Positions 20,989-53,476 of a stretch of 64,000 nucleotides of DNA are shown here, piece by piece (positions within the stretch are counted from its first letter, which is position 1; every line of letters starts with the position of its first letter). The position numbers and the translations under genes are program-made. Origin of the DNA: Rhodocyclaceae bacterium (GTDB taxonomy: Bacteria; Pseudomonadota; Gammaproteobacteria; Burkholderiales; Rhodocyclaceae); NCBI GenBank assembly GCA_049295655.1, contig JBAQRB010000024.1:554-64553 (forward strand). The letters run 5' to 3'. Below the pieces are notes generated by a model. That model worked only from the letters and a program-made list of their open reading frames with translations, did no database searches and was not told the DNA's origin.

Positions 20989-21012
20989 CACGCTGGACGA
21001 AAGATACAGACG

Positions 21013-27917: not shown

Positions 27918-28006
27918 GCAGGGCTGACCGCATCGTCCCGGGGAATAAAATTTCCGGAACGATGAAAACAATAAATGTCGCGACCAGCAACACGAGGAAA
28001 CTGTTC

Positions 28007-30580: not shown

Positions 30581-30702
30581 TTGACCGCGGCGACACGGCG
30601 TGCACGGCGAAGAACCTCGATTCTTCAGACGCGCAACAAGAGATACCAAAGCAATACAAGCCACTGGCTTTTCGCCGTGTACGCCGTGTCGCCGTGGTTA
30701 AC
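30581..30702. repeat. intergenic inverted-repeat element, sequence-variant copy (copy C)
   Basis: Left arm TTGACCGCGGCGACACGGCGTGCACGGCGAA (30581-30611). Right arm TTCGCCGTGTACGCCGTGTCGCCGTGGTTAAC (30671-30702). Same architecture and GTGGTTAAC end as copies A and B, but the 9-nt unit core is CACGGCG instead of CACAACG in both arms. Confidence 0.8.
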
Positions 30703-30714
30703 CGCTTTTTAAAA

Positions 30715-31755
30715 TCACTCCGCCGGCTGCCGAACCGGCAGCGTGATGCGGAAAGCGGTTCCCTTGCCCACCTCGCTGGACACCTCGATTCGCCCGTGGT
30801 GCTTCTGCACGATGCCATAGGACAGCGACAGGCCGAGCCCGGTCCCCTGCCCGATCGGCTTGGTGGTAAAAAATGGGTCAAAAATCTTCTGCATGTTTTC
30901 CGGTGGAATGCCGCAGCCATCGTCGGCGATTTCGATCCATACGGTGTCGTGATCGCCCATTCCGCTGCGCACGAAAATCTTGCCGCGCCGCTCGCTGCTC
31001 ATGGCGTGCGCCGAGTTGACCAGCAGGTTCATGAAAATCTGATTCAGTTGCGAGGCCATGCACTCGACCTGCGGAATATCGCCATATTCCTTGACGACGT
31101 CGGCCTTGTAACGGATTTCGTTGGCGACGATATTGAGCGTCGAATCGATGCCCTGATGCAGATCGGCCCAGAGATACTTCCCTTCGTCGGTATGCGAGAA
31201 GTCCTTCAGATCCTGAACGATCTTCTTCACCCGGTCGATGCCTTCTTTCGATTCGGCGAGGATCGCCAGCATGTCGGTTTTCAGGTAATCGACATCCAGC
31301 CGTCGACGGAGCTCGGCCAGCGCATCGCGTTCGGCCTGCGGCAAAGCGGCCTCCGCCGACTCGTAGGCAGCGATCAACTCGAGCAGGTCGCCGGCATAGT
31401 CGCCCAGCGTTGACAGGTTCGAATTGACGTAGCCAATCGGGTTGTTGATTTCGTGCGCCACCCCCGCCGCCAGCTGGCCGATCGACGCCATTTTCTCGGA
31501 TTGCAGCAACTGGTTGTGTGCCTGCTCGAGCTTGCCGATCAGTACGGTCTGCTCGTCTTTCTCGCGCAGCAGCGCTTCGTGGCGCTGCGTCAACTCGCTC
31601 GACATGATATCCAGCGAGCGCTCGACCAGCACTCTGTCGCTATCGGCCTTGCCGTAGGCTTCATTGACCGCGGCAATGAAGGCGTGCCAGTTCTCTGGAA
31701 TATCCTTGAGGGAACCAAAATTCCGCCGGATCTGGCGTTCAAGCAAGCGATGCAT
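30715..31755 (-). CDS. cytoplasmic histidine kinase (short N-terminus, HisKA + HATPase)
   Basis: H-box [23 protein letters not shown] and G-boxes [22 protein letters not shown] lies 7 nt upstream of ATG 31755. It is a paralogue of the kinases at 34099 and 37836. Confidence 0.85.
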
Positions 31756-31859
31756 TTTTTACTCCAGAAGTTTCGCGCCGTCAGTTTTCCGCCTCGCCAT
31801 GACAATCGCTGTTTTTTCAGTTACCGCCCGACTGCTCGCGCCGCGCCGGAGCGCGGCTC

Positions 31860-34091
31860 TTATTCCGGTTCCGGCCCGAGGACGCGGAGCACTTCCGCGA
31901 GGCTCGTCTCACCGAGCGAAACCTTCTTCCAGGCATCGACCCACAGCGATTCATGGCCACTCGAACGCGCGTGCGCGGCGATCTCCTTGATGCTGGCACT
32001 GCGCGCAATCAGGTCGCGCATGGCTTCATCCGGCAACAGTATTTCGTACAACCCGAGCCGGCCGCGGTAACCGCTGCCGGCGCATTCGGCGCAACCCAGC
32101 CCGACGAAGCTGGCGACCGGCTGGGAGCGGAAAAGTGGGCCGAGGCGCGCGGCTGCCGCGGCATCGAAGGCGATTTCATGGCGGCAGTGGCGGCAGATCC
32201 GGCGTACCAGCCGCTGCGCGATGACGCCCTCGAGCGCGCTGGCCACGATGAAGGGTTTCAGACCGAGATCGAGCAGGCGGGCAATCGTCGCCAGCGCCGA
32301 ATTGGTATGCAGCGTGGATAACACCTGATGGCCGGTCAACGCTGCGTGAAACGCCACCTCGGCCGTTTCGAAGTCGCGAATCTCGCCGATCAGCACGACA
32401 TCCGGATCCTGCCGCAGGATCGAGCGCAGCACCACCGGAAAGGATAGCCCGATCTTCTCGCGGACCAGCACCTGACCAGCCATGTCGAGGTAGTACTCGA
32501 CCGGATCCTCGATCGTGATGTAGTTCTTGGTGGGCGAAGCATTGGCCTGCAGCAATGAATACAGGGTGGTCGTCTTGCCGCTGCCAGTCGGCCCGGTGGC
32601 CAGCAGCAGGCCTTGCGGCTTGTCGACCATGGCCCGTACCTTGACCAACCCGTTCTCGCCGAAACCGAGCCCGGCCAGACTGAGTACCGCCGAATTACGG
32701 TCGAGGATGCGCATGACCACTTTTTCACCGTTGATCGTCGGCAGCGTCGAGATACGCAGATCGACGATGCGGACCGGCGACTTGACCGTAAGGCGCCCGT
32801 CCTGCGGCCGGCGGCGCTCCGAGATGTCGAGCTCGGCCATGATCTTCAGGCGGGAGACCAGCGGACTGTGCAGCGCGTGGGGAATGTGGATCTTGTCGTG
32901 CAGGACGCCATCGATACGCAGCCGCACCACGACGTTCTTGGTGCGCGGCTGGATGTGGATGTCGGATGCGCCGAGGCGCATGGCCTCGAGAATAATCGCG
33001 TTGGCCAGCCGGATGGCCGGCAGTTCGATGCACGAGGCCAGCAGTTCGTCGAGCGGCACGTTGTCCTCGTCGTCGATGACGATCTCGATGCCTTCGTAGG
33101 GATCGACGCTGCCGGCCAGGGTCTCGAGGTCGCGGATGTCGACGCCGTCGCTGTCGCCGTACACCTCGACAATTTTAGCGCGGATGGCCGCGGCGTCAGC
33201 CATCACTACCTTGAGGTCGAGTCCGGCGGTGAACCGGACATCGTCGATCAGGCCGGCGTCCATCGGGTCGGCGACCGCCAGCATCAGCCGGCGACCTTCG
33301 AGCTTGAGCGGCACGACCAGTTGTTTGTCGCAGAAGCTGCGCGGAATCAGCTCGGCGACGACGCTATCGACGCGAAATTCGCTGAGCGCCACTTCCTCGA
33401 CCAGCAGGTCTTCGCGCAAAATCTTGCGCAGCGACTTCTCGGCGACCCAGCCGCGATCGAGCAGCAGCTTGATCAGCGGCTCCTTGTGGATGCCCTGCAG
33501 GCGAGTCAGCTCCTGCAACTGCGCGCTGGACAGCAGATTCTTCTTGTGCAGCATCATGCCGAGCTGGCTGCGGTTGGAGACAGCGAGGCGCGAGAGCGCC
33601 GTGATCTCCTTCGACTTCTTGGCATTCTCGAGGCTGAGCGCCCGGTTCTTCTGCACCAGATCGAACTGCTCCAGCGCCAACGCGACCGTCACCCGCAGAT
33701 CATCGTCGTTCCACGGCTTGAGGATGAATTTGTAGACGGCGCCCTCGTTGACGGCGCCCATCACCGCCCCGGTGTCGGCATGGCCGGTGAGCATGATGCG
33801 CAGGGTATCCGGATGGCGGTGCTTGACCTCCTTGAGCAACTCGGCGCCGTTCATGCCGGGCATCATGTAGTCGCTGATCACGACATGGACCGGCGCCTCA
33901 GTCAGCCGCTCCAGCGCCTCCTTGCTGTCGCCGGCGGTGAGAACCTCATAAGCTTCGGAACGGAACGTACGGGTCAGCGCCTTGAGAATACCGGGCTCGT
34001 CGTCGACGATCAGGATGCGATAACGTTTCGCCGGCGCAGTCTCGTGCGGCGCGTCGCCTTGTCCGGTGAAATAGGCGGCGTAGTTGCTCAT
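31860..34091 (-). CDS. REC - T2SSE_N/MshEN-like - GspE/PilB-family secretion-type ATPase fusion
   Basis: N-terminal REC (ILIVDDEPGILKAL..VISDYMMPGMNG..FILKPWNDDDL). Central LGMMLHKKNLLSSAQLQELTRLQ-type repeats. Walker A GPTGSGKTTT, Walker B DPDVVLIGEIRD, His box LSTLHTNSA and tetra-Cys CRHC..CAEC. Confidence 0.9.
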   Translation of the reverse strand: MSNYAAYFTGQGDAPHETAPAKRYRILIVDDEPGILKALTRTFRSEAYEVLTAGDSKEALERLTEAPVHVVISDYMMPGMNGAELLKEVKHRHPDTLRIMLTGHADTGAVMGAVNEGAVYKFILKPWNDDDLRVTVALALEQFDLVQKNRALSLENAKKSKEITALSRLAVSNRSQLGMMLHKKNLLSSAQLQELTRLQGIHKEPLIKLLLDRGWVAEKSLRKILREDLLVEEVALSEFRVDSVVAELIPRSFCDKQLVVPLKLEGRRLMLAVADPMDAGLIDDVRFTAGLDLKVVMADAAAIRAKIVEVYGDSDGVDIRDLETLAGSVDPYEGIEIVIDDEDNVPLDELLASCIELPAIRLANAIILEAMRLGASDIHIQPRTKNVVVRLRIDGVLHDKIHIPHALHSPLVSRLKIMAELDISERRRPQDGRLTVKSPVRIVDLRISTLPTINGEKVVMRILDRNSAVLSLAGLGFGENGLVKVRAMVDKPQGLLLATGPTGSGKTTTLYSLLQANASPTKNYITIEDPVEYYLDMAGQVLVREKIGLSFPVVLRSILRQDPDVVLIGEIRDFETAEVAFHAALTGHQVLSTLHTNSALATIARLLDLGLKPFIVASALEGVIAQRLVRRICRHCRHEIAFDAAAAARLGPLFRSQPVASFVGLGCAECAGSGYRGRLGLYEILLPDEAMRDLIARSASIKEIAAHARSSGHESLWVDAWKKVSLGETSLAEVLRVLGPEPE

Positions 34092-34098
34092 TGTCCAC

Positions 34099-35292
34099 TC
34101 ATACAGGGAGTTCGATCATCACCGTCGTGCCACCTTCGATCGGATTGAGCACCGACAGCGAACCGCTGTGCGCGAGAATGATGTCGCGCGCCACCGTCAG
34201 CCCAAGTCCGCTGCCGCTACCCACCGCGCGGGTGGTAAAAAAAGGATCGAAGACTCGCGGCATCACGTCTTCCGGGATGCCCGGGCCGTTATCCGCAATG
34301 CGCACCGTGATCCGCTCGGCAGTCGCCCGCGTGCAAACGCTGACCCGACCCTGCTCGCCGACCGCCAGCAGGGCGTTCTGCAGGATATTGAGAAAGGCCT
34401 GGTTGAGGTGGCCGGGCAGGCACAGCAGGGGCGGCAGCGCGGCAAAATCGGCGTCGAGGGTCACACCAGCCGGTTTTTGCCCGCCGATCACCGAAAGCAG
34501 CGATTCGAGCTGCGCGTTGAGATCGACGATCTGCTCGTCGGGCTGGTCGATGCTGGAAAACCCCTTGAGATCCTTGACGATGCGCGCGATGCGATCGATT
34601 CCGGCGCGCGAATCCTTGAACAGTTCGGCAAAGTCATCGAGCGCGAAGTCGAGGTCAAGTGCCTTCCATGCCTCGGCAGGCACCGACGGGCGAAGCTCGG
34701 CAAAATCGGCGACGTAGCGCTCGGCCGACGACAGATTGCTGCTGATGAAACCGAGCGGATTGTTGATTTCGTGCGCCACACCGGCTGCCAGCTGACCGAT
34801 CGAGGCGAGGCGCTCGGCCTGATAGAGCTGGCGTTGCCGCTCGTCGATAATCACCAATTGCTCCTTGACCTTGGCATCGAGCGCTTCAGACAGTTCACGG
34901 TATCTCGTTTCAGAGGCTTTCAGCGCTGCGTTCTGCTGTTGCAGCTTGGCGTAGTCGGCGCGGATGGCCTCCATGTGCAGATCGGAAACCATGCGAAAGC
35001 GGGCGCGCGAGAGCAGCCCCCAGCGTACGGCGCGGGCGGCGGCGGCCAGCGCTTCGGGCGCGCAGGCGCAGGCGAGAAACCCCACCGGCTCGAGTTCCAG
35101 GATCAGCGGCGCGCGGAGCGTGCCGGCGAGAAGCGGGCTATCGGCACCGCCAAAGCGCACCCCACCCGCGTCGAGCACCGCCACCGGGCTGCCCAGCATG
35201 GCCTGCAGGGCCGTCGCCATCTCGTCGGCGTCCCGGATCGTGATCAGATCGTCGAGGATGAAGTCACGGTCGAAGGCGACGTCGCTGCTCAT
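34099..35292 (-). CDS. histidine kinase with uncharacterised ~150-aa N-terminal domain
   Basis: H-box [23 protein letters not shown] and G-boxes DNGPGIP..GSGSGLGL. ATG 35292 overlaps the stop of the upstream GTPase gene (ATGA); the ORF track starts at 35337. Confidence 0.85.
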   Translation of the reverse strand: MSSDVAFDRDFILDDLITIRDADEMATALQAMLGSPVAVLDAGGVRFGGADSPLLAGTLRAPLILELEPVGFLACACAPEALAAAARAVRWGLLSRARFRMVSDLHMEAIRADYAKLQQQNAALKASETRYRELSEALDAKVKEQLVIIDERQRQLYQAERLASIGQLAAGVAHEINNPLGFISSNLSSAERYVADFAELRPSVPAEAWKALDLDFALDDFAELFKDSRAGIDRIARIVKDLKGFSSIDQPDEQIVDLNAQLESLLSVIGGQKPAGVTLDADFAALPPLLCLPGHLNQAFLNILQNALLAVGEQGRVSVCTRATAERITVRIADNGPGIPEDVMPRVFDPFFTTRAVGSGSGLGLTVARDIILAHSGSLSVLNPIEGGTTVMIELPV

Positions 35293-35945
35293 GCGGGGGC
35301 TCCGCCGATCACTGCGGCGACGAAGCGGTCTTCGCACAGCCCGTGCTCACGGGCCAGGCCAAACTCGTCCGCGTAGCGTTGCCAGACGCCGTGGAGCAGC
35401 GCGGCGCAGGTTTCACGCACCCCCTGCCCCTGGACTGCCGCCGAAAATATCAGCGGCCACGGCGCCCCGGCGTAACGCTTGCGGATCTCGTCCTCGGGCA
35501 GGATGTCCTGCAGGTCGCGCTTGTTGAACTGGACAACGAGCGGCAAACGATCGAGGTCAAGGCCGACCCGCGCGAGGTTCTCGACGAGATTGTCGAACGC
35601 CTCGCCGTTATTGGTCGACTGCGTGCGCTGCGAATCGGCGACAAAAACCACGCCGTCGGCCCGCGACAACACCGCCTTGCGGGTGCCGTCATGCGCCACT
35701 TGCCCAGGCACCGTAAATAGACGAAAACGGATGGTCAGCCCCGACGAGGTACGAAAGCCGAGCGGTAGGAGGTCAAAAAACAGCGTACGGTCGTGCTGCG
35801 TCTCGAGCGTCATCAATTCCCCCTTCATTTCGGCGCCGACCAGATCGTGCAACTGCATCAGGTTGGTCGTCTTGCCGCTCTGCGCCGGCCCGTAATAGAC
35901 CAGTTTGAAGGTGAGGCGATTGGCCTCGCGCACAAGTTCCGGCAT
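35289..35945 (-). CDS. MglA-family Ras-like small GTPase
   Basis: Collinear with Myxococcus MglA as I recall it: KLVYYGPAQSGKTTNL (G1), DRTLFFDLLPL, LFTVPGQV (MglA-type G3), VVFVADSQ, QFNKRDL (G4). ATG 35945 shares 1 nt with the upstream stop (TGATG). Confidence 0.85.
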   Translation of the reverse strand: MPELVREANRLTFKLVYYGPAQSGKTTNLMQLHDLVGAEMKGELMTLETQHDRTLFFDLLPLGFRTSSGLTIRFRLFTVPGQVAHDGTRKAVLSRADGVVFVADSQRTQSTNNGEAFDNLVENLARVGLDLDRLPLVVQFNKRDLQDILPEDEIRKRYAGAPWPLIFSAAVQGQGVRETCAALLHGVWQRYADEFGLAREHGLCEDRFVAAVIGGAPA

Positions 35946-36523
35946 CAGGGCCGCTCCCGCGCCTGAACTTGTTCCTCGGCATCGAACAGGGACTCGTCGA
36001 GCAGAACCGAACCGTCCGGCCCCCATTTGACCTTGGTAATCCCCGGCTCGTCGGCTTCCAGACGCTGCATTTCGATTTCCTCGACGCTCATGTCGCCCTG
36101 CAGCAGGCGCGCCTCGTCGGCCAGACGGCGGTCTTCAAGGAGTTGCTCGTGCCGCGTCAAACCCAGCCTGACCGTGGCCACCAGATTGTCGTCGTCCCAC
36201 GGCTTGGTGAGATAGCGAAAAATTTCGGCCTCATTGAGCGCGCTCATCAGCGCATCGAAATCGGTCGATGCCGAAAGAATCAGGCGCACGCTATCCGGCT
36301 GCAACTGCCGTACTCTCTTCAAAAAGGTTACCCCATCCATCGGCGGCATGCGGAAGTCGGAGATGACCAGATCGAACATCGTGTTACCGAGCCGCTCAAG
36401 CGCCAAACGCGGGTCGTCGAACGTCTCGAGATGCAGATCTTCGCCGGCGAAGGCACGCTGCAGCGTGCGGCGCAACGCCCTGAGCACGTTGTTTTCGTCG
36501 TCTACGATCAGCATTCGTTTCAT
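35945..36523 (-). CDS. single-domain response regulator with ~70-aa acidic C-terminal tail
   Basis: REC (MLIVDDENNVLRAL..VISDFRMPPMDG..YLTKPWDDDNL). ATG 36523 lies 2 nt after the upstream stop; GTG 36529 is an alternative. Confidence 0.85.
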   Translation of the reverse strand: MKRMLIVDDENNVLRALRRTLQRAFAGEDLHLETFDDPRLALERLGNTMFDLVISDFRMPPMDGVTFLKRVRQLQPDSVRLILSASTDFDALMSALNEAEIFRYLTKPWDDDNLVATVRLGLTRHEQLLEDRRLADEARLLQGDMSVEEIEMQRLEADEPGITKVKWGPDGSVLLDESLFDAEEQVQARERP

Positions 36524-36525
36524 TT

Positions 36526-37839: not shown

Positions 37840-39686
37840 AGTGACCAGTCGGGCTCGGGCGTCGATCCGTTCGTCGGTTCGGTGTGTTTGATCGGTAGCG
37901 TAATGCGGAAGGTCGTTCCCTTGCCGACCTCGCTCTTCACCGTCAGATGTCCGTTGTGATTCTGGATAATGCCGTAGGACAAGGACAGGCCAAGCCCCGT
38001 CCCCTTGCCGACCGGCTTGGTGGTAAAGAACGGATCGAATATTTTCGGCAGGACATCGGCGGGAATACCGCTGCCGGTATCGGCGATTTCGATCCACACG
38101 TTGGCGCCGGTACACCCGCTGCGGATGGTTATCTTGCCGCGCACATTGTCGCTCATGGCGTGCGCGGCGTTGACACAGAGATTCATGATCACCTGGTTGA
38201 TCTGCGACGGCAGGCACTCGACGTCGGGCAGGTCGCCGTACTCCTTGAGCACATCGGCCTTGTACTTGATCTCGTTGGCGACGATGTTGAGCGTCGAGTC
38301 GATGCCATGATGCAGATTCGCCAACTGGTACTGATCGGTACTGTCGACGTGCGAGAAGTCTTTCAGGTCCTGGACGATTTTCTTGACCCGGCTGATCCCT
38401 TCCTTCGATTCCTTCATCAACAGCGGGATATCCTCGCGCAGAAATCCGATGTCGAACGCCTTGTGCAGGGCTTTCACCGTCTCCGACGCTTCGTCCGCCT
38501 CGTAGGCGGCGAGCAGGGTAAAGACGTCATCGAGATATTTTTCCAGCGCACAGATATTCGAATGCACGTAACCGATCGGGTTGTTGATCTCATGCGCGAC
38601 GCCGGCTGCCAGCTGGCCGATCGACGCCAGCTTCTCCGCCTGCACGAGCTGCTGCTTGGCTTCCGAGAGCCGGGTATTGAGTTCGCTGACCTCGGTGTAG
38701 CGTTTGCGCAGCTCCTGCTCGGTCGCTTCGCGGCGCTCGATATCTTCGGCCAGCATTTTGTTGCTCGCTGCCAGCTGCTGCGTCCGGCGTTCGACGAGTT
38801 CCTCGAGCCCGGCTTGCGCCTTGCGTAATTTCTCTTCGGCCAGCCGGCGCTCGGTGACATCCTGCAAGGTTTCAATGGCACCGATGATGCGGCCCTCGGC
38901 GTCGCGCAGGGGCGCTGCGGTAAAGAACAGCCAGCGACCGCCAGTGCCGAAATGCGGAAAAAAATCCTCGGCTTCGTACGCCCCGGTCGCCACCGTCGAG
39001 CGCTTGAACTTGCTGTGATAAAGGCTGCCGAACTCCGCTTCGATGACGCCATCAACCACCAGGTCGGCCATTACCGGACGCTCGGCGGGGTAGAAGGGCT
39101 GCCATTGCCGGCGGGTTCCCAGCAGGTCGATTGCCGGCACGCCGGTAATTTCCGCGCAGGCCTTGTTCCAGTGCGTAATCTGGTGCCGTTCATTGATGAC
39201 CAGGGTCGGTACCGGGTTGCCATCGATGATTTGCCCGAGCACCTGCTGCATGTGGCGCTGCACGGCATCGGCACGTTTGCGCTCGGTCATGTCGGTTAGC
39301 GAGGCGACGACCGTCGGCATTCCATCCAGATCCAGCAAGGCCAGGTTGGCCTCGACCCAATGTTCCAGACCATCCTTCGCCGCAAGCCGAAATTCGTAGC
39401 GTGGCACCACCGCCTCGCCGCGCAGGCGCGCCATGCCGCGCTGCCGGATGAGGTCACGCGCGTCGGGATGGGCGATCTGATCGAAATCCATCGCCAGCAG
39501 TTCGTCGCGGCCAAAACCGGTCAGCACCTCGAGTGCCGTGTTGGCGTAGAGAATGTGGGCACCGCGGTGCAGCATGATCGCCGCCCCGATTGCCTCGATC
39601 AGATTGAGACAGGCCGGATCCGGACTTGCCGATTGCTCGGCGACAGACTTCGCTGCTGTTTGCGCTTGCTCCACACTCCCCCCCAT
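37836..39686 (-). CDS. multi-PAS cytoplasmic sensor histidine kinase
   Basis: Two to three PAS-like regions, H-box [23 protein letters not shown] and G-boxes [16 protein letters not shown]. Confidence 0.9.
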
Positions 39687-39692
39687 GTCCTG

Positions 39693-40577
39693 TCAGCCTA
39701 CCAGCATTTCGCAGCCCCCCGCGAACTGTGTTTCAACCTCGCTGAAAATTTCCTGATAGTCGTCCTCGCCAAGCGCCAAAGAGTCCCAAACGACACTCGA
39801 CAGCGGCGGAACGAAACAATACCCGTTTTTGGCAAATTCAAGGGCATGGGCAATCGCATCGGCGATGTGCACGATACCTGAGAGCGGCGTGTGCACGCCG
39901 GCCTCCAGCAGGTGATGTCGGCCAACGGCTTCCTGGATCAGGGGCGGAAAGTTCCAGTGCGCGGCCAGTACTTCTCCGATCATGGCATGATCGACACCGA
40001 GCACGTCGCGTTCCGCCTCCAGCAACAGGCAATCGCACTCGGCGCGATAGGCCAGCACTGCCGCGAGATGCGCAGGAAAGCACGAAGCCAGCACCAGACG
40101 GCCGACATCGTGCAGCAACGCGGCGGTGAAGGCGTTCTCCTCGCTTATCTGCGTCCGCCGGGCAAGCGCTTTCGCACACAGCGCCGTGCCCATGCAGTGT
40201 CGCCAGAAACCGTGAAAATCGAAACCCGGCACCGCGTTGTGGCTGGTAAAGCTGCCGGTGACCGCCGCCGCCATCGCCAGCGTACGCACGCTCCGCATGC
40301 CCAGAACGACGATCACGTCCTGGATCGAGGAAACCTTGCCCTGCAGGCCGTAAAACGACGAATTGGCGACGCGCAGCATCTTCGCCACGAGGGCCTGATC
40401 GGACGCAATCTTCTTGGCGAGCAGATGGGTGTCGACGTTGTCGTCGGAAAGGCTCTGGATCAACTCGAGAATCACCGCCGGCAGTGAAGGAAGCGTCCCG
40501 ATCTGGCCGACCACCTGCGCCAAATCGAGTTTCATGGCCGGCGCCGACAGCCCTTCTCGCGCATTGCGCAGCGTCAT
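39693..40577 (-). CDS. HDOD domain protein
   Basis: 294 aa with the typical HDOD N-terminus (LPSLPAVILELIQSL..D..LAKKIASDQALVAKMLRVANSSFYG) and a degenerate HD region (LLHDVGRLVL). Confidence 0.85.
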   Translation of the reverse strand: MTLRNAREGLSAPAMKLDLAQVVGQIGTLPSLPAVILELIQSLSDDNVDTHLLAKKIASDQALVAKMLRVANSSFYGLQGKVSSIQDVIVVLGMRSVRTLAMAAAVTGSFTSHNAVPGFDFHGFWRHCMGTALCAKALARRTQISEENAFTAALLHDVGRLVLASCFPAHLAAVLAYRAECDCLLLEAERDVLGVDHAMIGEVLAAHWNFPPLIQEAVGRHHLLEAGVHTPLSGIVHIADAIAHALEFAKNGYCFVPPLSSVVWDSLALGEDDYQEIFSEVETQFAGGCEMLVG

Positions 40578-40759
40578 TGCGGCAGCCTCCAGCGATACTC
40601 GATCACCATGTGCATCAGTTGCCGCACGGGTTCGCCGTCGCCGGCGAGACGAAAAATATCTCGCAAGCGCTGCTCGATCTTCGCCCGCCTTGCAGCTTCA
40701 TCCGCAGCATCGTCAGGCGTCGCGCCGTCGACTGGCAGTTCTCCGTGTCCATCGCTCAT
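40574..40759 (-). CDS. small hypothetical protein (61 aa)
   Basis: GAAGGAGG lies 4 nt upstream of ATG 40759. The stop overlaps the HDOD start (ATGA). Acidic N-terminus plus a predicted helix. No family recognised. Confidence 0.5.
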   Translation of the reverse strand: MSDGHGELPVDGATPDDAADEAARRAKIEQRLRDIFRLAGDGEPVRQLMHMVIEYRWRLPQ

Positions 40760-40769
40760 CGTGCCTCCT

Positions 40770-41603
40770 TCAATAGACAAACAGCATCAGCTTGCCATGG
40801 GACTGGGAATGTTCGCCCATCACGCGGCAAGTCACCCGCCAATCACGTCCATCATCCAGCCAAACGATCGTGCTGCCGTCACCGGCCGTCAGCAGTGCTT
40901 GCAGAGCGTCCGGCAAACGCTCTTTGGCAAAGCTGCCGACCAGCGGCTGACCTTTGGCGATCACGCGTTCGGCCTCGATATTGGCAAAAACGATCATTCC
41001 CTCGTCGTCAAAGCCGATGACCGGCAAAGGCACGCGCTGCAGGATTTCCTGCGCGACGTTGAGCGTCACATTGTCGATCGCCAGCTGCCTCTCGCGCTCG
41101 GCAAGCAAGACGCGCAACTGCTCGTTGACCACCGCCAGCCCCCAGTTGGCGCGTTGAATCTCCTCGTTCAAGCGCAAATTGTCATCGGCAAGTTCCTTGT
41201 GCCGAAAGGCCTCGGCGATATTGGCGCGCAGCTGTTCGTCATCCCACGGTTTGGTCAGGAATTTGTAGATCGCCCCCTCGTTGATCGCATCGGTGATCGA
41301 CTGCAACTCGGTATATCCCGACAGCACCATGCGCACGGTATCGGGATAAGACTCCTTGACGCGACGCAGAAACTCGACGCCCGTCATGTTCGGCATGCGC
41401 TGGTCGGAGAGGATGACGTCGACCCGATGCTGCTCCAGCAATTCAAGCCCTTGCGCGCCGCCGTTGGCAATCAGGATTTCATACCCCTCCCGGCGCAGCA
41501 GACGGCGCAGGGAGGTCAGGATGTTTTCCTCGTCATCGACGAGCAGCAAGGTGCGTTTGCGCACCACGTCGGTCGCAGATTCGGCGTTTGTCATGTCGCT
41601 CAT
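40770..41603 (-). CDS. response regulator (REC + coiled coil + PAS-like C-terminal domain)
   Basis: REC (LLLVDDEENILTSL..ILSDQRMPNMTG..FLTKPWDDEQL). ATG 41603 is chosen; the ORF track starts at 41735 in a low-quality region. Confidence 0.85.
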   Translation of the reverse strand: MSDMTNAESATDVVRKRTLLLVDDEENILTSLRRLLRREGYEILIANGGAQGLELLEQHRVDVILSDQRMPNMTGVEFLRRVKESYPDTVRMVLSGYTELQSITDAINEGAIYKFLTKPWDDEQLRANIAEAFRHKELADDNLRLNEEIQRANWGLAVVNEQLRVLLAERERQLAIDNVTLNVAQEILQRVPLPVIGFDDEGMIVFANIEAERVIAKGQPLVGSFAKERLPDALQALLTAGDGSTIVWLDDGRDWRVTCRVMGEHSQSHGKLMLFVY

Positions 41604-41987
41604 GTTTTCCCCGTTCGCACGATGTGCCAAAACACTATATACCCAAGCCGCCACCAGCGACAAACGAACCCGGAAACGATTTTCCCGCCCGCGCTTGCGA
41701 CGGACAGATTCGAGCCTGGAATGCGGCAGAACCATGACAGAAGTATAGGTCCTGCAGCAATACCTCGTCGGACATCATTTTCTTCGGAAAAAGGCAGATG
41801 AGGGCGTTCATCTTTTCGCCGGCACCGCCCAGCCAAGAGGCACGAGGACGGGCGATCGGAAAAGAGCGGGACGTCCGTTCATCAAGCATGGCGGCGGACG
41901 GCAACTGACCGCTGTCGACAAAATTTCCTTCCCGGTCTCCAAAGCGAACATATCGGGCCATGCACGCGGAGCGAAAGTTCGCGAAGC

Positions 41988-44249
41988 TTACCCCTCTCCC
42001 GCAGGCACGGCGAGCGATGCGCGTGCCGCTATTTCCTGAGCATAATGAATAAAGGCTTCGTGAATCTGTTCGCGCAGCTCGTCGTCGTCCCATGGCTTGG
42101 TCAGGAAACGGAAAATGGCGCCGTGATTGATCGCATTGGTCAGCGAAGCCAGATCGCTGTAGCCTGAGAGCACCATGCGCACGGTTCGTGGATAAAGCGC
42201 TTTGACGCGGCTGAGAAACTCGGTTCCGTTCATGTACGGCATGCGCTGGTCGGAAACGATCACCTGCACCTCGTTCAATGCCAGCAGTTCGAGTGCGGCA
42301 GCACCGGAAGTGGCGCACAGAATGCGGTAACCGCTGTGCCGCAGCAGACGTTTCAGTGTATTCAGGATATCTTCCTCGTCGTCGACGAGGAGCAGCGTGC
42401 GTAGCGCGGGGTCTGCCTCAGCGCTGCTCAGCGGCAGGTGCTCGGCGCGCTCGATGAAGTCGCGAAAGCCATCGGCCGGCAGCGGTTGCGAGAAGAAATA
42501 GCCCTGTAACTGTTCGCAATTCTGCTGGCGCAGATAGCGCATCTGGCTTTCGGTTTCGACGCCCTCGGCCACCACGTACAGCCCCAGGCTGTGCGCCATG
42601 GCGATGACGGCAATGGCGATCAATGCATCGTCGGGTTCGGTGGTGATGTTCTGTACGAAGGAGCGGTCGATCTTCAGGCAATCGAACGGAAAGCGCTTGA
42701 GGTAACCGAGGCTGGAATAGCCAGTGCCGAAATCGTCCATCGCCAGACTGACGCCAAGCGCCTTGAGTCGCCGCAGCACACTCTCCGCCGTATCGAGATT
42801 CTGCATGACCATCGACTCGGTCACTTCGATCTGTAGCCATTTCGGGGCAAGACCGGCATCACCCAGCGCCGATGCGACGATCTCGACGATATTTTCCTGC
42901 CGGCACTGGCGCGCCGAAAGGTTGACCGCAATGGTCAGCGCCTGCAAGCCCTCGCGTTGCCAACGCGCCGCTTGCAGGCAGGCTTCGCGCAATACCCATT
43001 CGCCGATCGGCAGGATGATTCCCGACTCTTCGGCGAGCGGAATGAAGTGGGCCGGCAGAACCAGACCTTTCGCCGGATGCTGCCAGCGAATCAGCGCCTC
43101 GGCGCCGCAGATCTCGCCGGAATACAGATCGGCCTTGGGCTGATAATAAAGCTTCAGTTCGCCGCGCTCCAGCGCACCACGCAAGCCGGCTTCAAGCTCG
43201 GCCTCCTCCTGGGCGCGCTCGTTCATCACCTGTGCGTAACAGTTGAAACCGTTGCGCCCGCCGGCCTTGACCTGATACATGGCAAGATCGGCCAGGCGCA
43301 GCAGCGACGGCGCATCGCTCGCGTCCTGCGGATAAAAGCTGATGCCAATGCTGGGCGTGACGAACAACTCGCGGCCATCGAGATCGAAAGGCTGCGCCAA
43401 CAAGGCGAGTAATTTTCGGGCGAGCATCGTCGCGTCTTCATGCCGGGCCAGCTCGCTCAACACGAGAACGAACTCGTCGCCGCCGATGCGGGCAACGGTA
43501 TCGCCTTCGCGAACGCTTCCCTCTAGGCGTGTCGCCACGGCCTTCAACAGGCTGTCGCCAAGGCTGTGGCCCAGGCTGTCATTCACCTGCTTGAAGCGAT
43601 CCAGATCGATCAACAGGACGGCGGCGATGCTCCCGTCGCGCGCACTGTGCGTGACGGCCTGCGTCAGCCGGTCGGCGAGCAGCGTGCGGTTGGCCAAACC
43701 GGTCAGCATATCGTGGGTGGCCAGATACGCTACCTGGCTATCCCGGAATACCTGCTCGCTGACGTCGTCAAGAATGCTGACATAATGACCGATCGCCCCC
43801 TGGGCGTCGGGCGCCGGCACGACGGAAAGCTGGTTCCAGAAGGACGAACCGTCCTTGCGGCAGCACTGCACCATGGCCTGCCCCGAGTCATGCGAGCGCA
43901 ATGCGTGCCGGATGACGTCAAGTGCCGGCTGGTCGAGCGCCTCGCCGAGCAGGAAATGCGCGCTGCGACCGATCGCCTCTTTTGCCGGATAACCGGTGAT
44001 GCGCTCAAAAGCCGGGTTAACGTAGATAATCGGGTGCTGCGGCGCCACGGCATCGGTCATCATGATGCCATTGGACGATGACTCGACGGCGCGTACAAAC
44101 AACTGTAAGCAACGCCATGCCGCCTCGCTGTGCGTGCCAGCCGCCGGCGCTCCCGACAGCGCGCGCAGCAGGGACGATGCATCGAAGCGCTGCCCGCCTT
44201 CGGGGCTATCGAGAAAATCCTTCAGTGCATCGGAGATCGGCATGGTCAT
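41988..44249 (-). CDS. PAS - GGDEF - EAL - REC multidomain c-di-GMP turnover protein
   Basis: PAS regions. An intact GGDEF (ARIGGDEFVLVL) is preceded by RxxD (REGD). Intact EAL (GAEALIRW, DDFGTGYSSL). C-terminal REC (LLLVDDEEDILNTL..IVSDQRMPYMNG..FLTKPWDDDEL). The start is uncertain (ATG 44249/44243 or TTG 44279). Confidence 0.9.
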   Translation of the reverse strand: MTMPISDALKDFLDSPEGGQRFDASSLLRALSGAPAAGTHSEAAWRCLQLFVRAVESSSNGIMMTDAVAPQHPIIYVNPAFERITGYPAKEAIGRSAHFLLGEALDQPALDVIRHALRSHDSGQAMVQCCRKDGSSFWNQLSVVPAPDAQGAIGHYVSILDDVSEQVFRDSQVAYLATHDMLTGLANRTLLADRLTQAVTHSARDGSIAAVLLIDLDRFKQVNDSLGHSLGDSLLKAVATRLEGSVREGDTVARIGGDEFVLVLSELARHEDATMLARKLLALLAQPFDLDGRELFVTPSIGISFYPQDASDAPSLLRLADLAMYQVKAGGRNGFNCYAQVMNERAQEEAELEAGLRGALERGELKLYYQPKADLYSGEICGAEALIRWQHPAKGLVLPAHFIPLAEESGIILPIGEWVLREACLQAARWQREGLQALTIAVNLSARQCRQENIVEIVASALGDAGLAPKWLQIEVTESMVMQNLDTAESVLRRLKALGVSLAMDDFGTGYSSLGYLKRFPFDCLKIDRSFVQNITTEPDDALIAIAVIAMAHSLGLYVVAEGVETESQMRYLRQQNCEQLQGYFFSQPLPADGFRDFIERAEHLPLSSAEADPALRTLLLVDDEEDILNTLKRLLRHSGYRILCATSGAAALELLALNEVQVIVSDQRMPYMNGTEFLSRVKALYPRTVRMVLSGYSDLASLTNAINHGAIFRFLTKPWDDDELREQIHEAFIHYAQEIAARASLAVPAGEG

Positions 44250-44353
44250 TGCGATGGGTCTATCAACTGAGGCAATCAATAGGTAGAAATATTCTCACTT
44301 ACCAAAGGGCAGTGTAAAGCAAATGCGCGACACGAAACGCGCAAGCGTCCGTC

Positions 44354-46300: not shown

Positions 46301-46307
46301 CGCTCGA

Positions 46308-47474: not shown

Positions 47475-47555
47475 GGACGATCTCAAGGGCTGATCAAACA
47501 AAAACGGCACAGCCCGAAGGATGCGCCGCCCGCTAGCGGAATACTTTGGCTTAGG

Positions 47556-49363: not shown

Positions 49364-49365
49364 AT

Positions 49366-50238: not shown

Positions 50239-50250
50239 TGACGACTTTAC

Positions 50251-53472: not shown

Positions 53473-53476
53473 CTTT

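What the first reader, a model, noticed from the sequence alone, without database searches (positions are those of the whole stretch)
30715..44249. Twelve-gene co-directional signalling supercluster coupling c-di-GMP turnover, an MglA GTPase and an orphan secretion-type ATPase
On the minus strand, in order: PAS-GGDEF-EAL-REC; REC-PAS-like; a 61-aa protein; HDOD; multi-PAS HK; REC-HD-GYP; single REC; MglA-type GTPase; HK with an unknown N-domain; REC-MshEN-like-GspE ATPase; short HK. From 41603 to 31860 the spacings are -4, -4, -1, -4, +2, +6, +7 and +10 nt (ATGA/TGATG overlaps), so the genes are very likely co-translated at fixed stoichiometry. The set holds a c-di-GMP writer/eraser, an eraser, a possible reader (the MshEN-like region), a polarity-type GTPase and a hexameric motor ATPase. 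There is no pilus, secretion, chemotaxis or DNA-binding component. I do not know a described system with this composition. A working hypothesis is a phosphorelay- and c-di-GMP-gated polarity or motor module.
Basis: inference. Interest (0 to 1): 0.75.

Follow-up and report, generated by a model that had tools for sequence, protein, structure and literature searches.

The report
Conserved GTPase–kinase–pilus-ATPase signalling operon
This run of signalling genes is a real operon whose core (a lone receiver protein, a Ras-like MglA GTPase, a dedicated histidine kinase and a receiver-fused pilus-type motor ATPase) recurs in at least four bacterial phyla, and I found no paper describing it.

Summary
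There are 11 co-directional ORFs, not 12. The domain calls are right, and the eight tight junctions (+10, -4, +6, -4, +2, -1, -4, +7 nt) are as stated.

A four-gene core recurs in Betaproteobacteria, Gammaproteobacteria, Desulfobacterota and Nitrospirota:
- a single REC protein with a conserved C-terminal PGIT..WG.DGSV motif
- an MglA-family GTPase
- a histidine kinase (HK) with a private GAF-like N-domain
- a REC-MshEN-PilB/GspE-like ATPase

The start/stop overlap at the GTPase-to-HK junction is kept in most of these loci. Myxococcota keep only the GTPase-HK pair.

The c-di-GMP enzymes are frequent but dispensable: REC-HD-GYP in 17 of 21 loci, GGDEF in 13, EAL in 11, HDOD in 7. The MshEN "reader" motifs are degenerate across the whole family, so phosphorylation of the fused REC, not c-di-GMP binding, is the likelier control of the ATPase. 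There is no MglB/Roadblock GAP, and the kinase N-domain is not Roadblock-like.

The best reading is a G-protein-coupled multikinase network whose output is a phospho-regulated PilB-type motor ATPase, with c-di-GMP turnover as a co-output. The closest analogues are the Myxococcus MglA polarity module, the actinobacterial conservon and NosK/NosR. Nine literature searches found no description. I rate it a new variant of a known kind. The mechanism is inferred, not shown.

The parts
41988..44249 (-). g1: PAS-GGDEF-EAL-REC (753 aa). A potentially bifunctional c-di-GMP cyclase/phosphodiesterase with a C-terminal receiver. Accessory member of the system.
   Evidence: Pfam: EAL 253 bits, GGDEF 160, REC 79, PAS_9 69. 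GGDEF at residue 256, with an RxxD I-site (REGD) five residues upstream. EALIR, DDFGTG and EGVE are intact. The same architecture lies next to the cassette in L001, L003, L005, L006, L011 and L012. In Sulfuricella L007 it is fused to the g2 C-domain.
41604..41987 (-). 384-nt intergenic region between g1 and g2, with a promoter-like site at 41663-41634. Possible start of the g2-g10 transcription unit.
   Evidence: TTGTCG-18-TATAGT, 9/12 matches. The number of such sites in the region is not above chance (4 found, 3.2 expected). No Rfam family matched.
40770..41603 (-). g2: REC, coiled coil and a PAS-like C-domain (277 aa).
   Evidence: Pfam REC 90.5 bits, and no hit for residues 140-277. Proteins of about 270 aa with the same layout precede REC-HD-GYP in L003, L008, L013, L015, L017 and L021. 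The C-domain begins with a PAS-like Q.IL..LP..V.G.D..G....AN pattern.
40574..40759 (-). g3: 61-aa ORF with a GGAGG ribosome-binding site. Lineage-specific small protein, or possibly not a gene.
   Evidence: No Pfam or NCBIfam hit. The only related sequence is a syntenic ORF in Sulfuricella L007 (phmmer E 0.03). There is no such ORF in L003, where the REC-X and HDOD genes overlap.
39693..40577 (-). g4: HDOD protein (294 aa, or 280 aa if it starts at ATG 40535). Accessory.
   Evidence: Pfam HDOD 200.8 bits. Present in 7 of 21 cassette loci, all Beta/Gamma.
37836..39686 (-). g5: PAS-PAS sensor histidine kinase (616 aa). The upstream sensor HK of the cassette.
   Evidence: Pfam: PAS_3, PAS_4, PAS_9 and HATPase_c. 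H-box AHEINNP. A sensor HK with a variable PAS or GAF input holds this position in L003, L005, L007, L008, L010, L013, L015, L019 and L021.
36526..37839 (-). g6: REC-HD-GYP response regulator (437 aa), predicted to be an active c-di-GMP phosphodiesterase.
   Evidence: Pfam HD_5 138 bits and REC 92 bits. NCBIfam NF053512 'NosR family' 574.9 bits, above the 400 cut-off. HD at 239, HHER at 293 and DGQGYP at 298 are intact. Present in 17 of 21 cassette loci.
35945..36523 (-). g7: single-domain REC with a conserved C-terminal peptide (192 aa). Core member. Its stop codon overlaps the GTPase start by 1 nt.
   Evidence: Pfam REC 77 bits. The C-terminal motif LE.E.PGIT.V.WG.DGSV.LD is conserved from Betaproteobacteria to Geomonas (L015) and Thermodesulfovibrio (L017). 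The same 1-nt overlap with the GTPase start occurs in L001, L085 and L014.
35289..35945 (-). g8: MglA-family small GTPase (218 aa) with a subfamily-specific C-terminal tail. Core member.
   Evidence: PDB 3t12 (Thermus MglA) E 9.2e-46, and M. xanthus MglA E 1e-44. K25/T26 of the P-loop, R53 (intrinsic arginine finger position), the TVPGQ motif with Q82, and N141, K142 and D144 of the NKxD motif are invariant in alignment A1. The C-terminal tail HGL.E..FV is conserved. No MglB was found in the cluster.
34099..35292 (-). g9: histidine kinase with a private small GAF-like N-domain (397 aa). Core member. Its start overlaps the GTPase stop by 4 nt.
   Evidence: Pfam HisKA and HATPase_c. The N-domain HMM hits only the HK immediately downstream of the GTPase in every cassette locus (E 2e-9 to 5e-31). 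AlphaFold2 of the N-domain: pLDDT 91.5, pTM 0.81, alpha-beta-beta-beta-beta followed by a long helix. Foldseek gives only weak GAF-like matches (CodY, SpoVT; E >= 0.015) and no Roadblock fold. Of the 20 GTPase-to-HK junctions measured, 14 overlap (-4, -8 or -11 nt) and 6 are gaps of +3 to +40 nt.
31860..34091 (-). g10: REC-MshEN-PilB/GspE-like hexameric ATPase (743 aa). Core member and probable output.
   Evidence: Pfam T2SSE 411 bits, REC 90, MshEN 68. PDB 6olj (Geobacter PilB) E 1e-127. Walker A GPTGSGKT and the CxxC...CxxC pair are present. It scores below the NCBIfam cut-offs for PilB (526 < 675.65) and GspE (521 < 630.25). The MshEN motifs are degenerate: QLG...TRLQ and PLI...RED. All of the 120 best homologues share the three-domain architecture.
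31840..31857 (.). GC-rich palindromic hairpin immediately after the g10 stop codon. Possible partial terminator or mRNA-stability element ahead of g11.
   Evidence: (7 G-C pairs) and the sequence. No T-run follows it on the coding (minus) strand.
30715..31755 (-). g11: short histidine kinase without a sensor domain (346 aa). Frequent accessory in Beta/Gamma loci.
   Evidence: Pfam HATPase_c 96 bits. NCBIfam T2SS_HK 388 bits, below the 450 cut-off. An HK follows the ATPase in L001, L005, L011 and L085.

Best explanation
This is a conserved and, as far as I could find, undescribed signalling operon: a G-protein-coupled multikinase network.

Composition. The invariant core has four genes. They are a single-domain receiver with a conserved C-terminal peptide (g7), an MglA-family GTPase (g8), a soluble histidine kinase whose small GAF-like N-domain occurs only in this context (g9), and a PilB/GspE-type hexameric ATPase with an N-terminal receiver (g10). 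Lineage-specific additions are sensor kinases (g5, g11), a REC-PAS-like adaptor (g2), and the c-di-GMP enzymes or partners REC-HD-GYP (g6), PAS-GGDEF-EAL-REC (g1) and HDOD (g4).

Proposed mechanism (inferred):
1. The nucleotide state of the GTPase is read by the GAF-like N-domain of g9 and sets its balance between kinase and phosphatase activity.
2. g9, together with the sensor kinases, phosphorylates one paralogous family of 'KPW' receivers.
3. Phosphorylation of the receiver on g10 switches the ATPase on or off, or changes its localisation. In this way it controls a type IV pilus-like or type II secretion-like machine encoded elsewhere.
4. In parallel, phospho-control of HD-GYP and GGDEF-EAL adjusts c-di-GMP.
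5. The single receiver g7 feeds back on the GTPase, as a GEF- or GAP-like partner or as a phosphate sink. This gives switch-like behaviour comparable to the MglA/RomR module.

What is shown: the domain content, the intact catalytic motifs, the conservation of the gene set and of most of its overlapping junctions, the exclusivity of the g9 N-domain, and the degeneracy of the MshEN motifs.

What is inferred: every protein-protein and phosphotransfer step, and the pilus or motor output.
For: 1. Conservation as a unit.
- A genome scan seeded with the GTPase family, followed by a tblastn domain map, found GTPase -> g9N-HK -> REC-MshEN-T2SSE in the same order and on the same strand. The hosts are Azoarcus CIB, Sulfurimicrobium, Azonexus, Rhodoferax, Sulfuricella, Azospira, a gammaproteobacterial MAG, two Marinobacter, Geobacterales, Geomonas, Desulfoluna, Desulfuromonadales, Thermodesulfovibrionales and Thermodesulfovibrio.
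- 18 of 21 loci carrying the GTPase-HK pair also have the ATPase. Two of the other three are cut by a contig end just after the HK.
- Fourteen contig lengths recur among the top hits of the GTPase, ATPase and HK searches, which suggests the three genes share contigs.

2. Tight coupling.
- Of 20 GTPase-to-HK junctions measured, 14 overlap by 4, 8 or 11 nt, including two Myxococcota loci. The other six have gaps of +3 to +40 nt.
- The stop of the upstream gene overlaps the GTPase start by 1 nt in the window, L001, L085 and L014 (where that gene is the single REC) and in L013 (where it is REC-HD-GYP).

3. The g9 N-domain is private to this context and folds confidently (pLDDT 91.5).

4. GTPase catalytic residues are invariant (K25/T26, R53, Q82; N141, K142 and D144 of the NKxD motif), and there is a subfamily-specific C-terminal tail.

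5. All five receivers keep DD...D...T/S...KPW. All three kinases carry AHEINNP, which fits the H-E-x-x-N phosphatase motif discussed for NosK in PMC12570481.

6. The ATPase has an intact Walker A and Zn-finger cysteines, and aligns end to end with PilB.

7. Minimal loci (L016, L014, L085) contain only g9-type (plus g11-type) kinases and the g7 and g10 receivers. By parsimony, g9 signals to g7 and g10.

8. A Rosetta-stone fusion of g1 and g2 in Sulfuricella ties g1 to the unit despite the 384-nt gap.

9. Canonical mglA genes sit next to pilB/pilT-like genes in three other loci (L053, L068, L075). Published work links MglA to PilB/PilT positioning (PMC4316618 introduction; PMC11580455).
Against: - No interaction or phosphotransfer has been tested. 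No complex prediction was available here.
- No pilus or secretion platform gene (PilC/GspF, PilM-Q, pilins) lies in this window's cluster or in any related locus, so the ATPase's client machine is unknown. It may not be a pilus at all.
- No GAP (MglB/Roadblock) or GEF (RomX-like) protein is recognisable, so how the GTPase cycles is open.
- The signal could run the other way, with the kinase or receiver controlling the GTPase, as proposed for the conservon.
- The fold assignment of the g9 N-domain is weak (Foldseek E >= 0.015).
- Promoter and terminator calls are at chance level, so single-transcript status is not shown.
Confidence: 0.5

Rival explanations
1. Reverse wiring. The kinases and receivers are the input, and the GTPase is the output, as proposed for the actinobacterial conservon. 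Phospho-g7, or the g9 N-domain, acts as a GEF or GAP for the MglA-like GTPase. The GTP-bound form then recruits or activates the PilB-like ATPase at a cell pole.
For: - g7 is translationally coupled to the GTPase and has a conserved C-terminal peptide.
- In M. xanthus a receiver protein (RomR, with RomX) is the MglA GEF, and MglA-GTP stimulates type IV pilus formation (PMC9481161, PMC11580455).
- Wuichet and Sogaard-Andersen posit the GTPase as the conservon output (PMC4316618).
- The absence of a recognisable MglB leaves room for an unconventional regulator.
Against: - g10 carries its own receiver, so it has a direct phospho-input that needs no GTPase.
- Myxococcota keep the GTPase-HK pair without g7 or g10. 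This fits a direct GTPase-HK partnership better than a g7-centred one.
- Nothing distinguishes the two directions computationally.
Confidence: 0.25
2. It is a nitric-oxide- or denitrification-responsive c-di-GMP system of the NosP/NosK/NosR type. The purpose of the cluster would be c-di-GMP control downstream of the adjacent nos/nir genes, with the GTPase and ATPase as peripheral passengers.
For: - g6 scores 574.9 bits against NCBIfam NF053512 'response regulator c-di-GMP phosphodiesterase, NosR family' (cut-off 400).
- g9 and g11 resemble NosK: a soluble HK with about 130 aa of unassigned N-terminus and an HEINN motif (PMC12570481).
- The cluster lies directly downstream of nirF/DL/G/H and a nosZ/nosD block on the same strand.
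Against: - No FIST/NosP or H-NOX sensor is in the cluster, or among the roughly 40 larger ORFs of the window that I scanned with Pfam.
- Synteny with denitrification genes is absent in the related loci whose flanking genes were annotated (L001, L003, L085).
- HD-GYP is missing from some cassettes (L085, L016, L011), while the GTPase, HK and ATPase are kept wherever the contig extends far enough (L018 excepted).
- The Geomonas REC-HD-GYP also passes the NosR cut-off (467.7 bits), so this family model evidently covers REC-HD-GYP proteins more broadly.
Confidence: 0.1
3. g10 is an MshE-type c-di-GMP receptor ATPase. The cluster would then be a self-contained c-di-GMP circuit (writer g1, erasers g1 and g6, reader g10).
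For: - A Pfam MshEN domain is present (68 bits).
- REC-MshEN architectures are listed among candidate c-di-GMP receptors, and an MshEN-containing response regulator (Bd2402) binds c-di-GMP although its motifs are imperfect (PMC5013675).
- Motif I keeps LG, L17 and Q24, and has a conserved Arg two residues upstream.
Against: - Motif II has lost the RLG triplet in all 16 family members aligned (PLI, FIA, FLS and similar), and its terminal Q is variable (D in the window).
- Motif I lacks Arg at the canonical position. The non-binding XpsE carries a comparable substitution at the motif II glycine (G40L), among several other motif changes (PMC5013675).
- The c-di-GMP enzymes are dispensable members of the cassette.
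Confidence: 0.1
4. The arrangement is a fortuitous pile-up of unrelated two-component and c-di-GMP genes with no joint function.
For: - The window is rich in such genes elsewhere: a second REC-HD-GYP with a hybrid HK at 11646-15751, a DUF3391-HD-GYP at 86-1327 and a REC-TPR protein at 21013-22626.
- The accessory genes vary between lineages.
Against: - The core order and most of the overlapping junctions are conserved across four phyla.
- One domain (g9N) is found only in this context.
- There is a g1-g2 gene fusion in Sulfuricella.
Confidence: 0.05

Closest known systems
Myxococcus xanthus / Thermus / Bdellovibrio MglA polarity module (MglA, MglB, RomR-RomX, acting on type IV pilus ATPases)
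   Same: g8 is a Group-1-type MglA, about 50% identical to crystallised MglAs, with the intrinsic Arg and the TVPGQ glutamine. Receiver-domain proteins are partners, and a PilB-type ATPase is the plausible downstream target.
   Different: There is no MglB/Roadblock GAP and no RomX. The partners are encoded in one operon with histidine kinases, and the PilB homologue itself carries the receiver. The GTPase has an extra conserved C-terminal tail. The system occurs in Beta/Gammaproteobacteria, Desulfobacterota and Nitrospirota.
Actinobacterial conservon (CvnA HK, CvnB Roadblock, CvnC, CvnD GTPase)
   Same: An MglA-family GTPase is encoded in a conserved operon with a dedicated histidine kinase. 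This is the only other known conserved pairing of a G protein with a histidine kinase in bacteria.
   Different: The conservon HK is membrane-bound with a HAMP domain and a C-terminal LPxR motif. The conservon has Roadblock and CvnC proteins and no response regulator. The present system has a soluble HK with a GAF-like N-domain, several receivers and an ATPase output, and neither Roadblock nor CvnC.
NosP-NosK-NosR (NahK) nitric-oxide-responsive c-di-GMP two-component systems
   Same: Both have a REC-HD-GYP regulator (g6 passes the NCBIfam NosR-family cut-off). Both have a soluble HEINN-type HK whose N-terminal region of about 130 aa has no recognised sensor and is controlled by an accessory protein.
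   Different: The FIST/NosP haem sensor is absent, and a small GTPase occupies the 'accessory protein next to the HK' position. The HD-GYP here is catalytically intact, whereas B. pseudomallei NosR reads HG-GTP.
MshE / PilB / GspE c-di-GMP-binding extension ATPases
   Same: The MshEN plus T2SSE architecture, Walker A, the tetracysteine motif and full-length alignment to PilB.
   Different: There is an N-terminal receiver fusion. Both c-di-GMP-binding motifs are degenerate. The protein falls below the equivalog cut-offs for PilB and GspE. No pilus or secretion genes lie in the neighbourhood.
Xanthomonas RpfC/RpfG (REC-HD-GYP) signalling to type IV pili. This comparison rests on my own knowledge and was not checked here.
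   Same: A KPW-type REC-HD-GYP regulator is functionally linked to a PilB-type pilus motor and to GGDEF proteins.
   Different: In Xanthomonas the link runs through protein interactions among unlinked genes (GGDEF proteins, PilZ, FimX). There is no GTPase and no receiver-fused ATPase.

Membership tests
MglA family of prokaryotic Ras-like GTPases (Group 1 sensu Wuichet and Sogaard-Andersen 2014) | Sequence similarity to characterised MglA over the whole G domain | tested here: met
   phmmer against the PDB: Thermus MglA 3t12 E 9.2e-46, M. xanthus MglA 5ymx/6hjh E 1.1e-44, query residues 8-185 aligned.
MglA family of prokaryotic Ras-like GTPases (Group 1 sensu Wuichet and Sogaard-Andersen 2014) | Intrinsic arginine finger in switch I, and a G3 motif TVPGQ with the catalytic glutamine (Thr in place of the usual Asp) | tested here: met
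   DRTLFFD with R53, and TVPGQ with Q82. Both residues are invariant in 26 family members.
MglA family of prokaryotic Ras-like GTPases (Group 1 sensu Wuichet and Sogaard-Andersen 2014) | A cognate MglB (Roadblock/LC7) GAP encoded within about four genes (true of 390 of 449 MglAs in PMC4316618) | tested here: not met
   No product of the 11 genes has a Roadblock hit. The only unassigned domain next to the GTPase (g9N) models as a small GAF-like fold, not Roadblock. The rest of the genome could not be searched. By that paper's definition the protein is an 'orphan' MglA.
MshE-type c-di-GMP receptor ATPases | Two tandem 24-residue motifs RLGxxL(V/I)xxG(I/F)(L/V)xxxxLxxxLxxQ separated by 5 residues | tested here: not met
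   Motif I reads QLGMMLHKKNLLSSAQLQELTRLQ (R1 to Q, L21 to T). Motif II reads PLIKLLLDRGWVAEKSLRKILRED (R1 to P, G3 to I, Q24 to D). The motif II RLG is absent in all 16 orthologues aligned. Binding itself cannot be tested here.
MshE-type c-di-GMP receptor ATPases | C-terminal T2SSE ATPase with Walker A | tested here: met
   PF00437 411 bits. GPTGSGKT at residue 500.
Type IVa pilus assembly ATPase PilB / T2SS ATPase GspE (NCBIfam equivalogs) | Score above the curated equivalog cut-off | tested here: not met
   TIGR02538 526.2 < 675.65. TIGR02533 521.2 < 630.25. The Geomonas orthologue behaves the same way.
Type IVa pilus assembly ATPase PilB / T2SS ATPase GspE (NCBIfam equivalogs) | Encoded with platform, pilin or secretin genes | tested here: not met
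   None in the cluster. My domain map did not include pilus or secretion queries. No such gene was called next to the cassette in the annotated loci (L001, L003, L085), and none is among the ORFs read in L015.
NosP/NosK/NosR NO-sensing system | REC-HD-GYP regulator of the NosR family | tested here: met
   NF053512 574.9 bits, cut-off 400, full-length match to profile positions 1-422.
NosP/NosK/NosR NO-sensing system | A FIST-domain haem protein NosP encoded with the kinase | tested here: not met
   No FIST hit in any cluster product or in the flanking ORFs scanned.
Actinobacterial conservon | The four-gene set: HK (HAMP, LPxR tail), Roadblock, CvnC and GTPase | tested here: not met
   Only the GTPase-HK adjacency is shared. 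There is no Roadblock or CvnC-like product, and g9 ends ...MIELPV without an LPxR tail.
Catalytically competent HD-GYP phosphodiesterase | Metal-binding HD, HHE and GYP motifs | tested here: met
   HD at 239, HHER at 293, DGQGYP at 298. Enzyme activity cannot be tested here.
Bifunctional GGDEF-EAL protein | GG(D/E)EF active site, and EAL with DDFGTG and EGVE | tested here: met
   GGDEF at 256 with an RxxD I-site at 247. EALIR at 384, DDFGTG at 505, EGVE at 562.

The most novel reading that the evidence does not exclude
Bacteria from at least four phyla would share a second, conservon-independent kind of G-protein-coupled two-component system. In it, an MglA-type GTPase directly gates a histidine kinase through a dedicated GAF-like docking domain. 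The terminal output of the phosphorelay is a receiver-fused PilB-type hexameric motor ATPase. This would be a phosphorylation-switched pilus or secretion motor that replaces c-di-GMP sensing by MshEN, and it would work without an MglB-type GAP.
Probability: 0.35. Interest if true: 0.8.

Novelty: new variant of a known kind. Interest (0 to 1): 0.62.

Why it matters
- **Scope of MglA biology.** MglA-type GTPases are understood almost only from Myxococcus polarity, where their links to two-component signalling and to the pilus ATPases are indirect and the genes are scattered. Here the GTPase, a private kinase, its receivers and a PilB-like ATPase are hard-wired in one operon, in many easily grown denitrifiers, Marinobacter and Geobacter relatives. 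That makes three questions directly testable with a handful of purified proteins: how a bacterial Ras-like switch talks to a histidine kinase, how MglA cycles without MglB, and how a pilus-type motor can be controlled by phosphorylation.
- **Annotation.** Thousands of database entries for these proteins are currently labelled 'T2SS/T4P ATPase', 'TadA', 'SRP receptor beta' or 'globin-coupled histidine kinase'. This work would reclassify them.
- **c-di-GMP receptor surveys.** REC-MshEN ATPases should not be counted as c-di-GMP receptors by default.

Tried and rejected
- **Is the unassigned N-domain of g9 the missing MglB?** I tested whether it is a Roadblock domain. A profile search of the PDB gave only noise-level PAS/GAF hits. 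AlphaFold2 gave a confident small alpha-beta4-helix domain. Foldseek returned weak GAF-like matches and no Roadblock. Rejected.
- **Anti-phage defence association.** PADLOC gave only generic REC, HD and P-loop similarity. Rejected.
- **Riboswitch or other structured RNA in the gaps.** Rfam at gathering thresholds found nothing in 30000-45000.
- **Promoter and terminator scan.** The counts are at chance level. The sites upstream of g1 and g2 are only suggestive.
- **Link to the neighbouring nos/nir genes.** This synteny was not seen in the related loci whose flanking genes were annotated.
- **g3 as a conserved component.** There is only one weak syntenic match.
- **Literature.** Nine full-text searches combined MglA, HD-GYP, GspE/PilB, receiver, MshEN, NosP/NosR, Bd2402, Geobacter and 'MglA-like'. 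None found a paper describing the cassette.
- **Source contig.** An exact look-up of the window's own ATPase was not on record. The protein lists do show 100% identical entries from a 67,093-bp contig of a Rhodocyclaceae MAG.

Full report
**1. What is in the sequence**

The minus strand between 30715 and 44249 carries 11 ORFs, not 12. Pfam and NCBIfam scans give the following, in order:
- g1 41988-44249: PAS-GGDEF-EAL-REC.
- g2 40770-41603: REC plus an unassigned C-terminal half.
- g3 40574-40759: 61 aa, no hit.
- g4 39693-40577: HDOD.
- g5 37836-39686: PAS-PAS-HK.
- g6 36526-37839: REC-HD-GYP.
- g7 35945-36523: REC.
- g8 35289-35945: small GTPase.
- g9 34099-35292: HK with an unassigned N-domain.
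- g10 31860-34091: REC-MshEN-T2SSE.
- g11 30715-31755: short HK.

With the start codons supported by homologue N-termini, the junctions from g2 to g10 are +10, -4, +6, -4, +2, -1, -4 and +7 nt. The g3/g4 value depends on which of two ATGs starts the HDOD gene.

g1 is separated from g2 by 384 nt, and g11 from g10 by 104 nt. The latter gap begins with a GC-rich hairpin. Promoter-like hexamers sit upstream of g1 and g2, but such sites are no more frequent here than in shuffled sequence. No Rfam family matches.

The window comes from a Rhodocyclaceae MAG. Database entries 100% identical to g9 and g10 lie on a 67,093-bp contig.

**2. State of the individual parts**

*c-di-GMP enzymes.* g1 keeps GGDEF, an RxxD I-site, and the EAL, DDFGTG and EGVE motifs. 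g6 keeps HD, HHE and GYP. Both are therefore plausible active enzymes.

*Receivers and kinases.* All five receivers are close paralogues with DD...D...KPW. All three kinases share the AHEINNP H-box. That H-box fits the H-E-x-x-N kinase/phosphatase motif discussed for NosK (PMC12570481).

*GTPase.* g8 is unambiguously MglA family: E 9e-46 to Thermus MglA and 1e-44 to M. xanthus MglA. The intrinsic arginine (R53) and the TVPGQ glutamine (Q82) are invariant in the family. A C-terminal tail (HGL.E..FV) is absent from canonical MglA.

*ATPase.* g10 aligns end to end with Geobacter PilB (E 1e-127) and has Walker A and the tetracysteine motif. It scores below the curated PilB and GspE cut-offs.

*MshEN motifs.* The N-terminal MshEN helices do not carry the two RLG...L...L..Q motifs that bind c-di-GMP in MshE (PMC5013675). 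Motif I has Gln at the Arg position. Motif II reads PLI... and ends in D. The motif II RLG is missing in all 16 orthologues I aligned, from four phyla. The 'possible reader' is therefore doubtful.

**3. Is it a unit?**

Yes. This is the main result.

*Individual loci.*
- Azoarcus sp. CIB: REC-HD-GYP / REC / GTPase / HK / REC-MshEN-T2SSE / HK / PAS-GGDEF-EAL-REC.
- Sulfurimicrobium: GGDEF-EAL protein / REC / HDOD / GAF-HK / PAS-HK / REC-HD-GYP / REC / GTPase / HK / REC-MshEN-T2SSE.
- Azospira restricta: only REC / GTPase / HK / REC-MshEN-T2SSE / HK.

*Genome scan.* I scanned one genome per GTDB species with the GTPase alignment, then built a tblastn domain map and an ORF map. The block GTPase -> HK(g9N) -> REC-MshEN-T2SSE appears in Azonexus, Rhodoferax, Sulfuricella, a gammaproteobacterial MAG, two Marinobacter, Geobacterales, Geomonas edaphica, Desulfoluna, Desulfuromonadales, Thermodesulfovibrionales and Thermodesulfovibrio. 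It is rearranged in Ca. Magnetomicrobium.

*Counts over the 21 loci with the GTPase-HK pair.*

| Component | Loci with it |
|---|---|
| REC-MshEN-T2SSE ATPase | 18 (two of the other three are cut by a contig end) |
| HD-GYP | 17 |
| GGDEF | 13 |
| EAL | 11 |
| HDOD | 7 |
| g3 | 1 (the window) |

*Junctions.* Of 20 GTPase-to-HK junctions measured, 14 overlap by 4, 8 or 11 nt and 6 have gaps of +3 to +40 nt. The upstream gene's stop overlaps the GTPase start by 1 nt in the window, L001, L085 and L014 (single REC upstream) and in L013 (REC-HD-GYP upstream).

*Myxococcota* keep the GTPase and a downstream HK (overlap -4 in the two loci measured, L020 and L022) but no ATPase.

*Canonical mglA loci* (L038-L084) have none of this. 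Three of them have pilB/pilT-like genes just downstream.

*Further links.* In Sulfuricella, g1 and g2 are fused into one protein. This ties g1 to the unit despite the gap. Aromatoleum petrolei has two copies of the core.

**4. Context-specific modules**

*g9 N-domain.* An HMM of this domain hits only the kinase immediately after the GTPase (E 2e-9 to 5e-31), and weakly the Myxococcota kinases. AlphaFold2 models it with high confidence (pLDDT 91.5, pTM 0.81) as helix, four strands, then a long helix running into the DHp. Foldseek finds only weak GAF-like neighbours (CodY, SpoVT; E >= 0.015) and no Roadblock fold. It is therefore not a hidden MglB.

*g7 family.* It has a conserved C-terminal peptide, LE.E.PGIT.V.WG.DGSV.LD, from Betaproteobacteria to Nitrospirota.

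*g2 family.* It consists of REC, a coiled coil and a PAS-like domain of about 95 aa.

**5. How it most likely works**

Shown: composition, motif integrity, synteny, junctions and domain exclusivity. Everything below is inferred.

Parsimony from the minimal loci (L016, L014, L085) makes g9 the kinase for the g7 and g10 receivers. Three observations make the GTPase the best candidate for the accessory regulator of g9, in the position that NosP holds for NosK (PMC12570481) or CvnD for CvnA (PMC4316618, PMC13343842):
- the frequent GTPase-to-g9 overlap;
- the private N-domain of g9;
- retention of just this pair in Myxococcota.

The receiver fused to a PilB-type ATPase, combined with loss of the MshEN c-di-GMP motifs, suggests that phosphorylation has replaced c-di-GMP as the ATPase's switch.

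Known MglA biology concerns the positioning and stimulation of type IV pilus ATPases (PMC4316618, PMC11580455). Together with the mglA-pilB/pilT adjacency seen in other phyla, it makes a pilus-type motor the most likely client. No platform or pilin gene is nearby, so this step is the weakest.

The c-di-GMP enzymes are best seen as parallel, lineage-specific outputs of the same kinases.

The opposite signal direction remains a serious rival: receivers or kinase -> GTPase -> ATPase localisation.

**6. Comparison with known systems and novelty**

The system shares parts with four described systems: the MglA/MglB/RomR module, the conservon, NosP/NosK/NosR and MshE-type ATPases. It fails at least one defining feature of each:
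- no MglB;
- no Roadblock or CvnC;
- no NosP;
- degenerate MshEN motifs, and scores below the PilB and GspE cut-offs.

Wuichet and Sogaard-Andersen noted that Group 1 MglA neighbourhoods 'vary widely' and did not describe this cassette. Nine full-text searches found nothing on it. Source annotations are generic or wrong: 'SRP receptor beta', 'TadA', 'globin-coupled histidine kinase'.

I therefore rate it a new variant of a known kind, namely G-protein-linked two-component signalling. It is widely distributed and experimentally tractable.

**7. Verdict**

The unit is conserved and novel. However, the conserved unit is the 4-7 gene core rather than the whole 11-gene set, and c-di-GMP gating through MshEN is unlikely.
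- Confidence that this is a functional unit is about 0.9. Confidence in the specific mechanism is about 0.5.
- Interest: 0.62.

Noticed in passing
window 44354-58234 (minus strand): Directly upstream on the same strand lies a denitrification block. It holds nirH, nirG and nirDL siroheme decarboxylase-like genes, a nirF-like cytochrome d1 protein, a thioredoxin-like protein, an ABC-2 permease, two 4Fe-4S proteins, NosD, a cytochrome c and a NosZ-like nitrous oxide reductase. The related loci whose flanking genes were annotated (L001, L003, L085) do not share this neighbourhood.
   Followed up: partly
window 25764-30580 (plus strand): Two tandem cyanophycin-synthetase-like genes (Cyanophycin_syn N-domain, ATP-grasp and Mur ligase domains), convergent with the signalling cluster.
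   Followed up: no
window 2190-5651 (plus strand): A 1153-aa MmeI-type fused restriction-modification enzyme (MmeI_N, helicase spacer, methyltransferase and TRD domains), in a stretch of slightly lower GC.
   Followed up: no
window 86-1327 and 11646-15751 (minus strand): Further c-di-GMP and two-component genes in the same window: a DUF3391-HD-GYP protein, and a second REC-HD-GYP translationally coupled to a PAS-PAS-HK-REC-Hpt hybrid kinase.
   Followed up: no
window 20245-22626 (plus strand): An ORF with HATPase_c only, followed by a REC-TPR protein (537 aa), in the lowest-GC part of the window (0.548).
   Followed up: no
L007 1584-5258 (Sulfuricella MAG): The equivalents of g1 and g2 are fused into one 1224-aa open frame (GGDEF-EAL-REC-g2C). 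This Rosetta-stone fusion links the c-di-GMP enzyme to the REC-PAS-like adaptor.
   Followed up: partly
window 35945-36140; L015 14604-15176; L017 7107-7682: The single-receiver family ends in a conserved peptide, LE.E.PGIT.V.(W/R)..DG.(V/I).(L/I), kept from Betaproteobacteria to Nitrospirota. It may be a short docking motif. No known family matched.
   Followed up: partly
L053, L068, L075 (Zixiibacteriota, Ignavibacteria): Canonical mglA genes lie 1-2 kb upstream of a pilB-like and a pilT-like ATPase gene. This is independent genomic evidence for an MglA-to-pilus-ATPase link outside Myxococcota.
   Followed up: no
L020-L037 (Myxococcota): A GTPase 41-52% identical to g8 is followed by a longer histidine kinase (about 466 aa in the two loci measured, where the overlap is 4 nt) whose N-terminus weakly matches the g9 N-domain HMM. 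There is no ATPase. This may be the ancestral dyad.
   Followed up: partly
window 31840-31857: A perfect GC-rich hairpin (GCCGCGC-nnnn-GCGCGGC) sits immediately after the stop codon of the ATPase gene, with no T-run on the coding strand. It may attenuate read-through into g11.
   Followed up: no
window 40574-40759 and L007 5230-5610: The 61-aa g3 product weakly resembles the C-terminal half of a longer syntenic ORF in Sulfuricella. The N-terminal half of that ORF has an L..GM.LA.DV.D..G..LL..G..LT pattern that also occurs at the C-terminus of g6. g3 may be a remnant of a small domain.
   Followed up: partly
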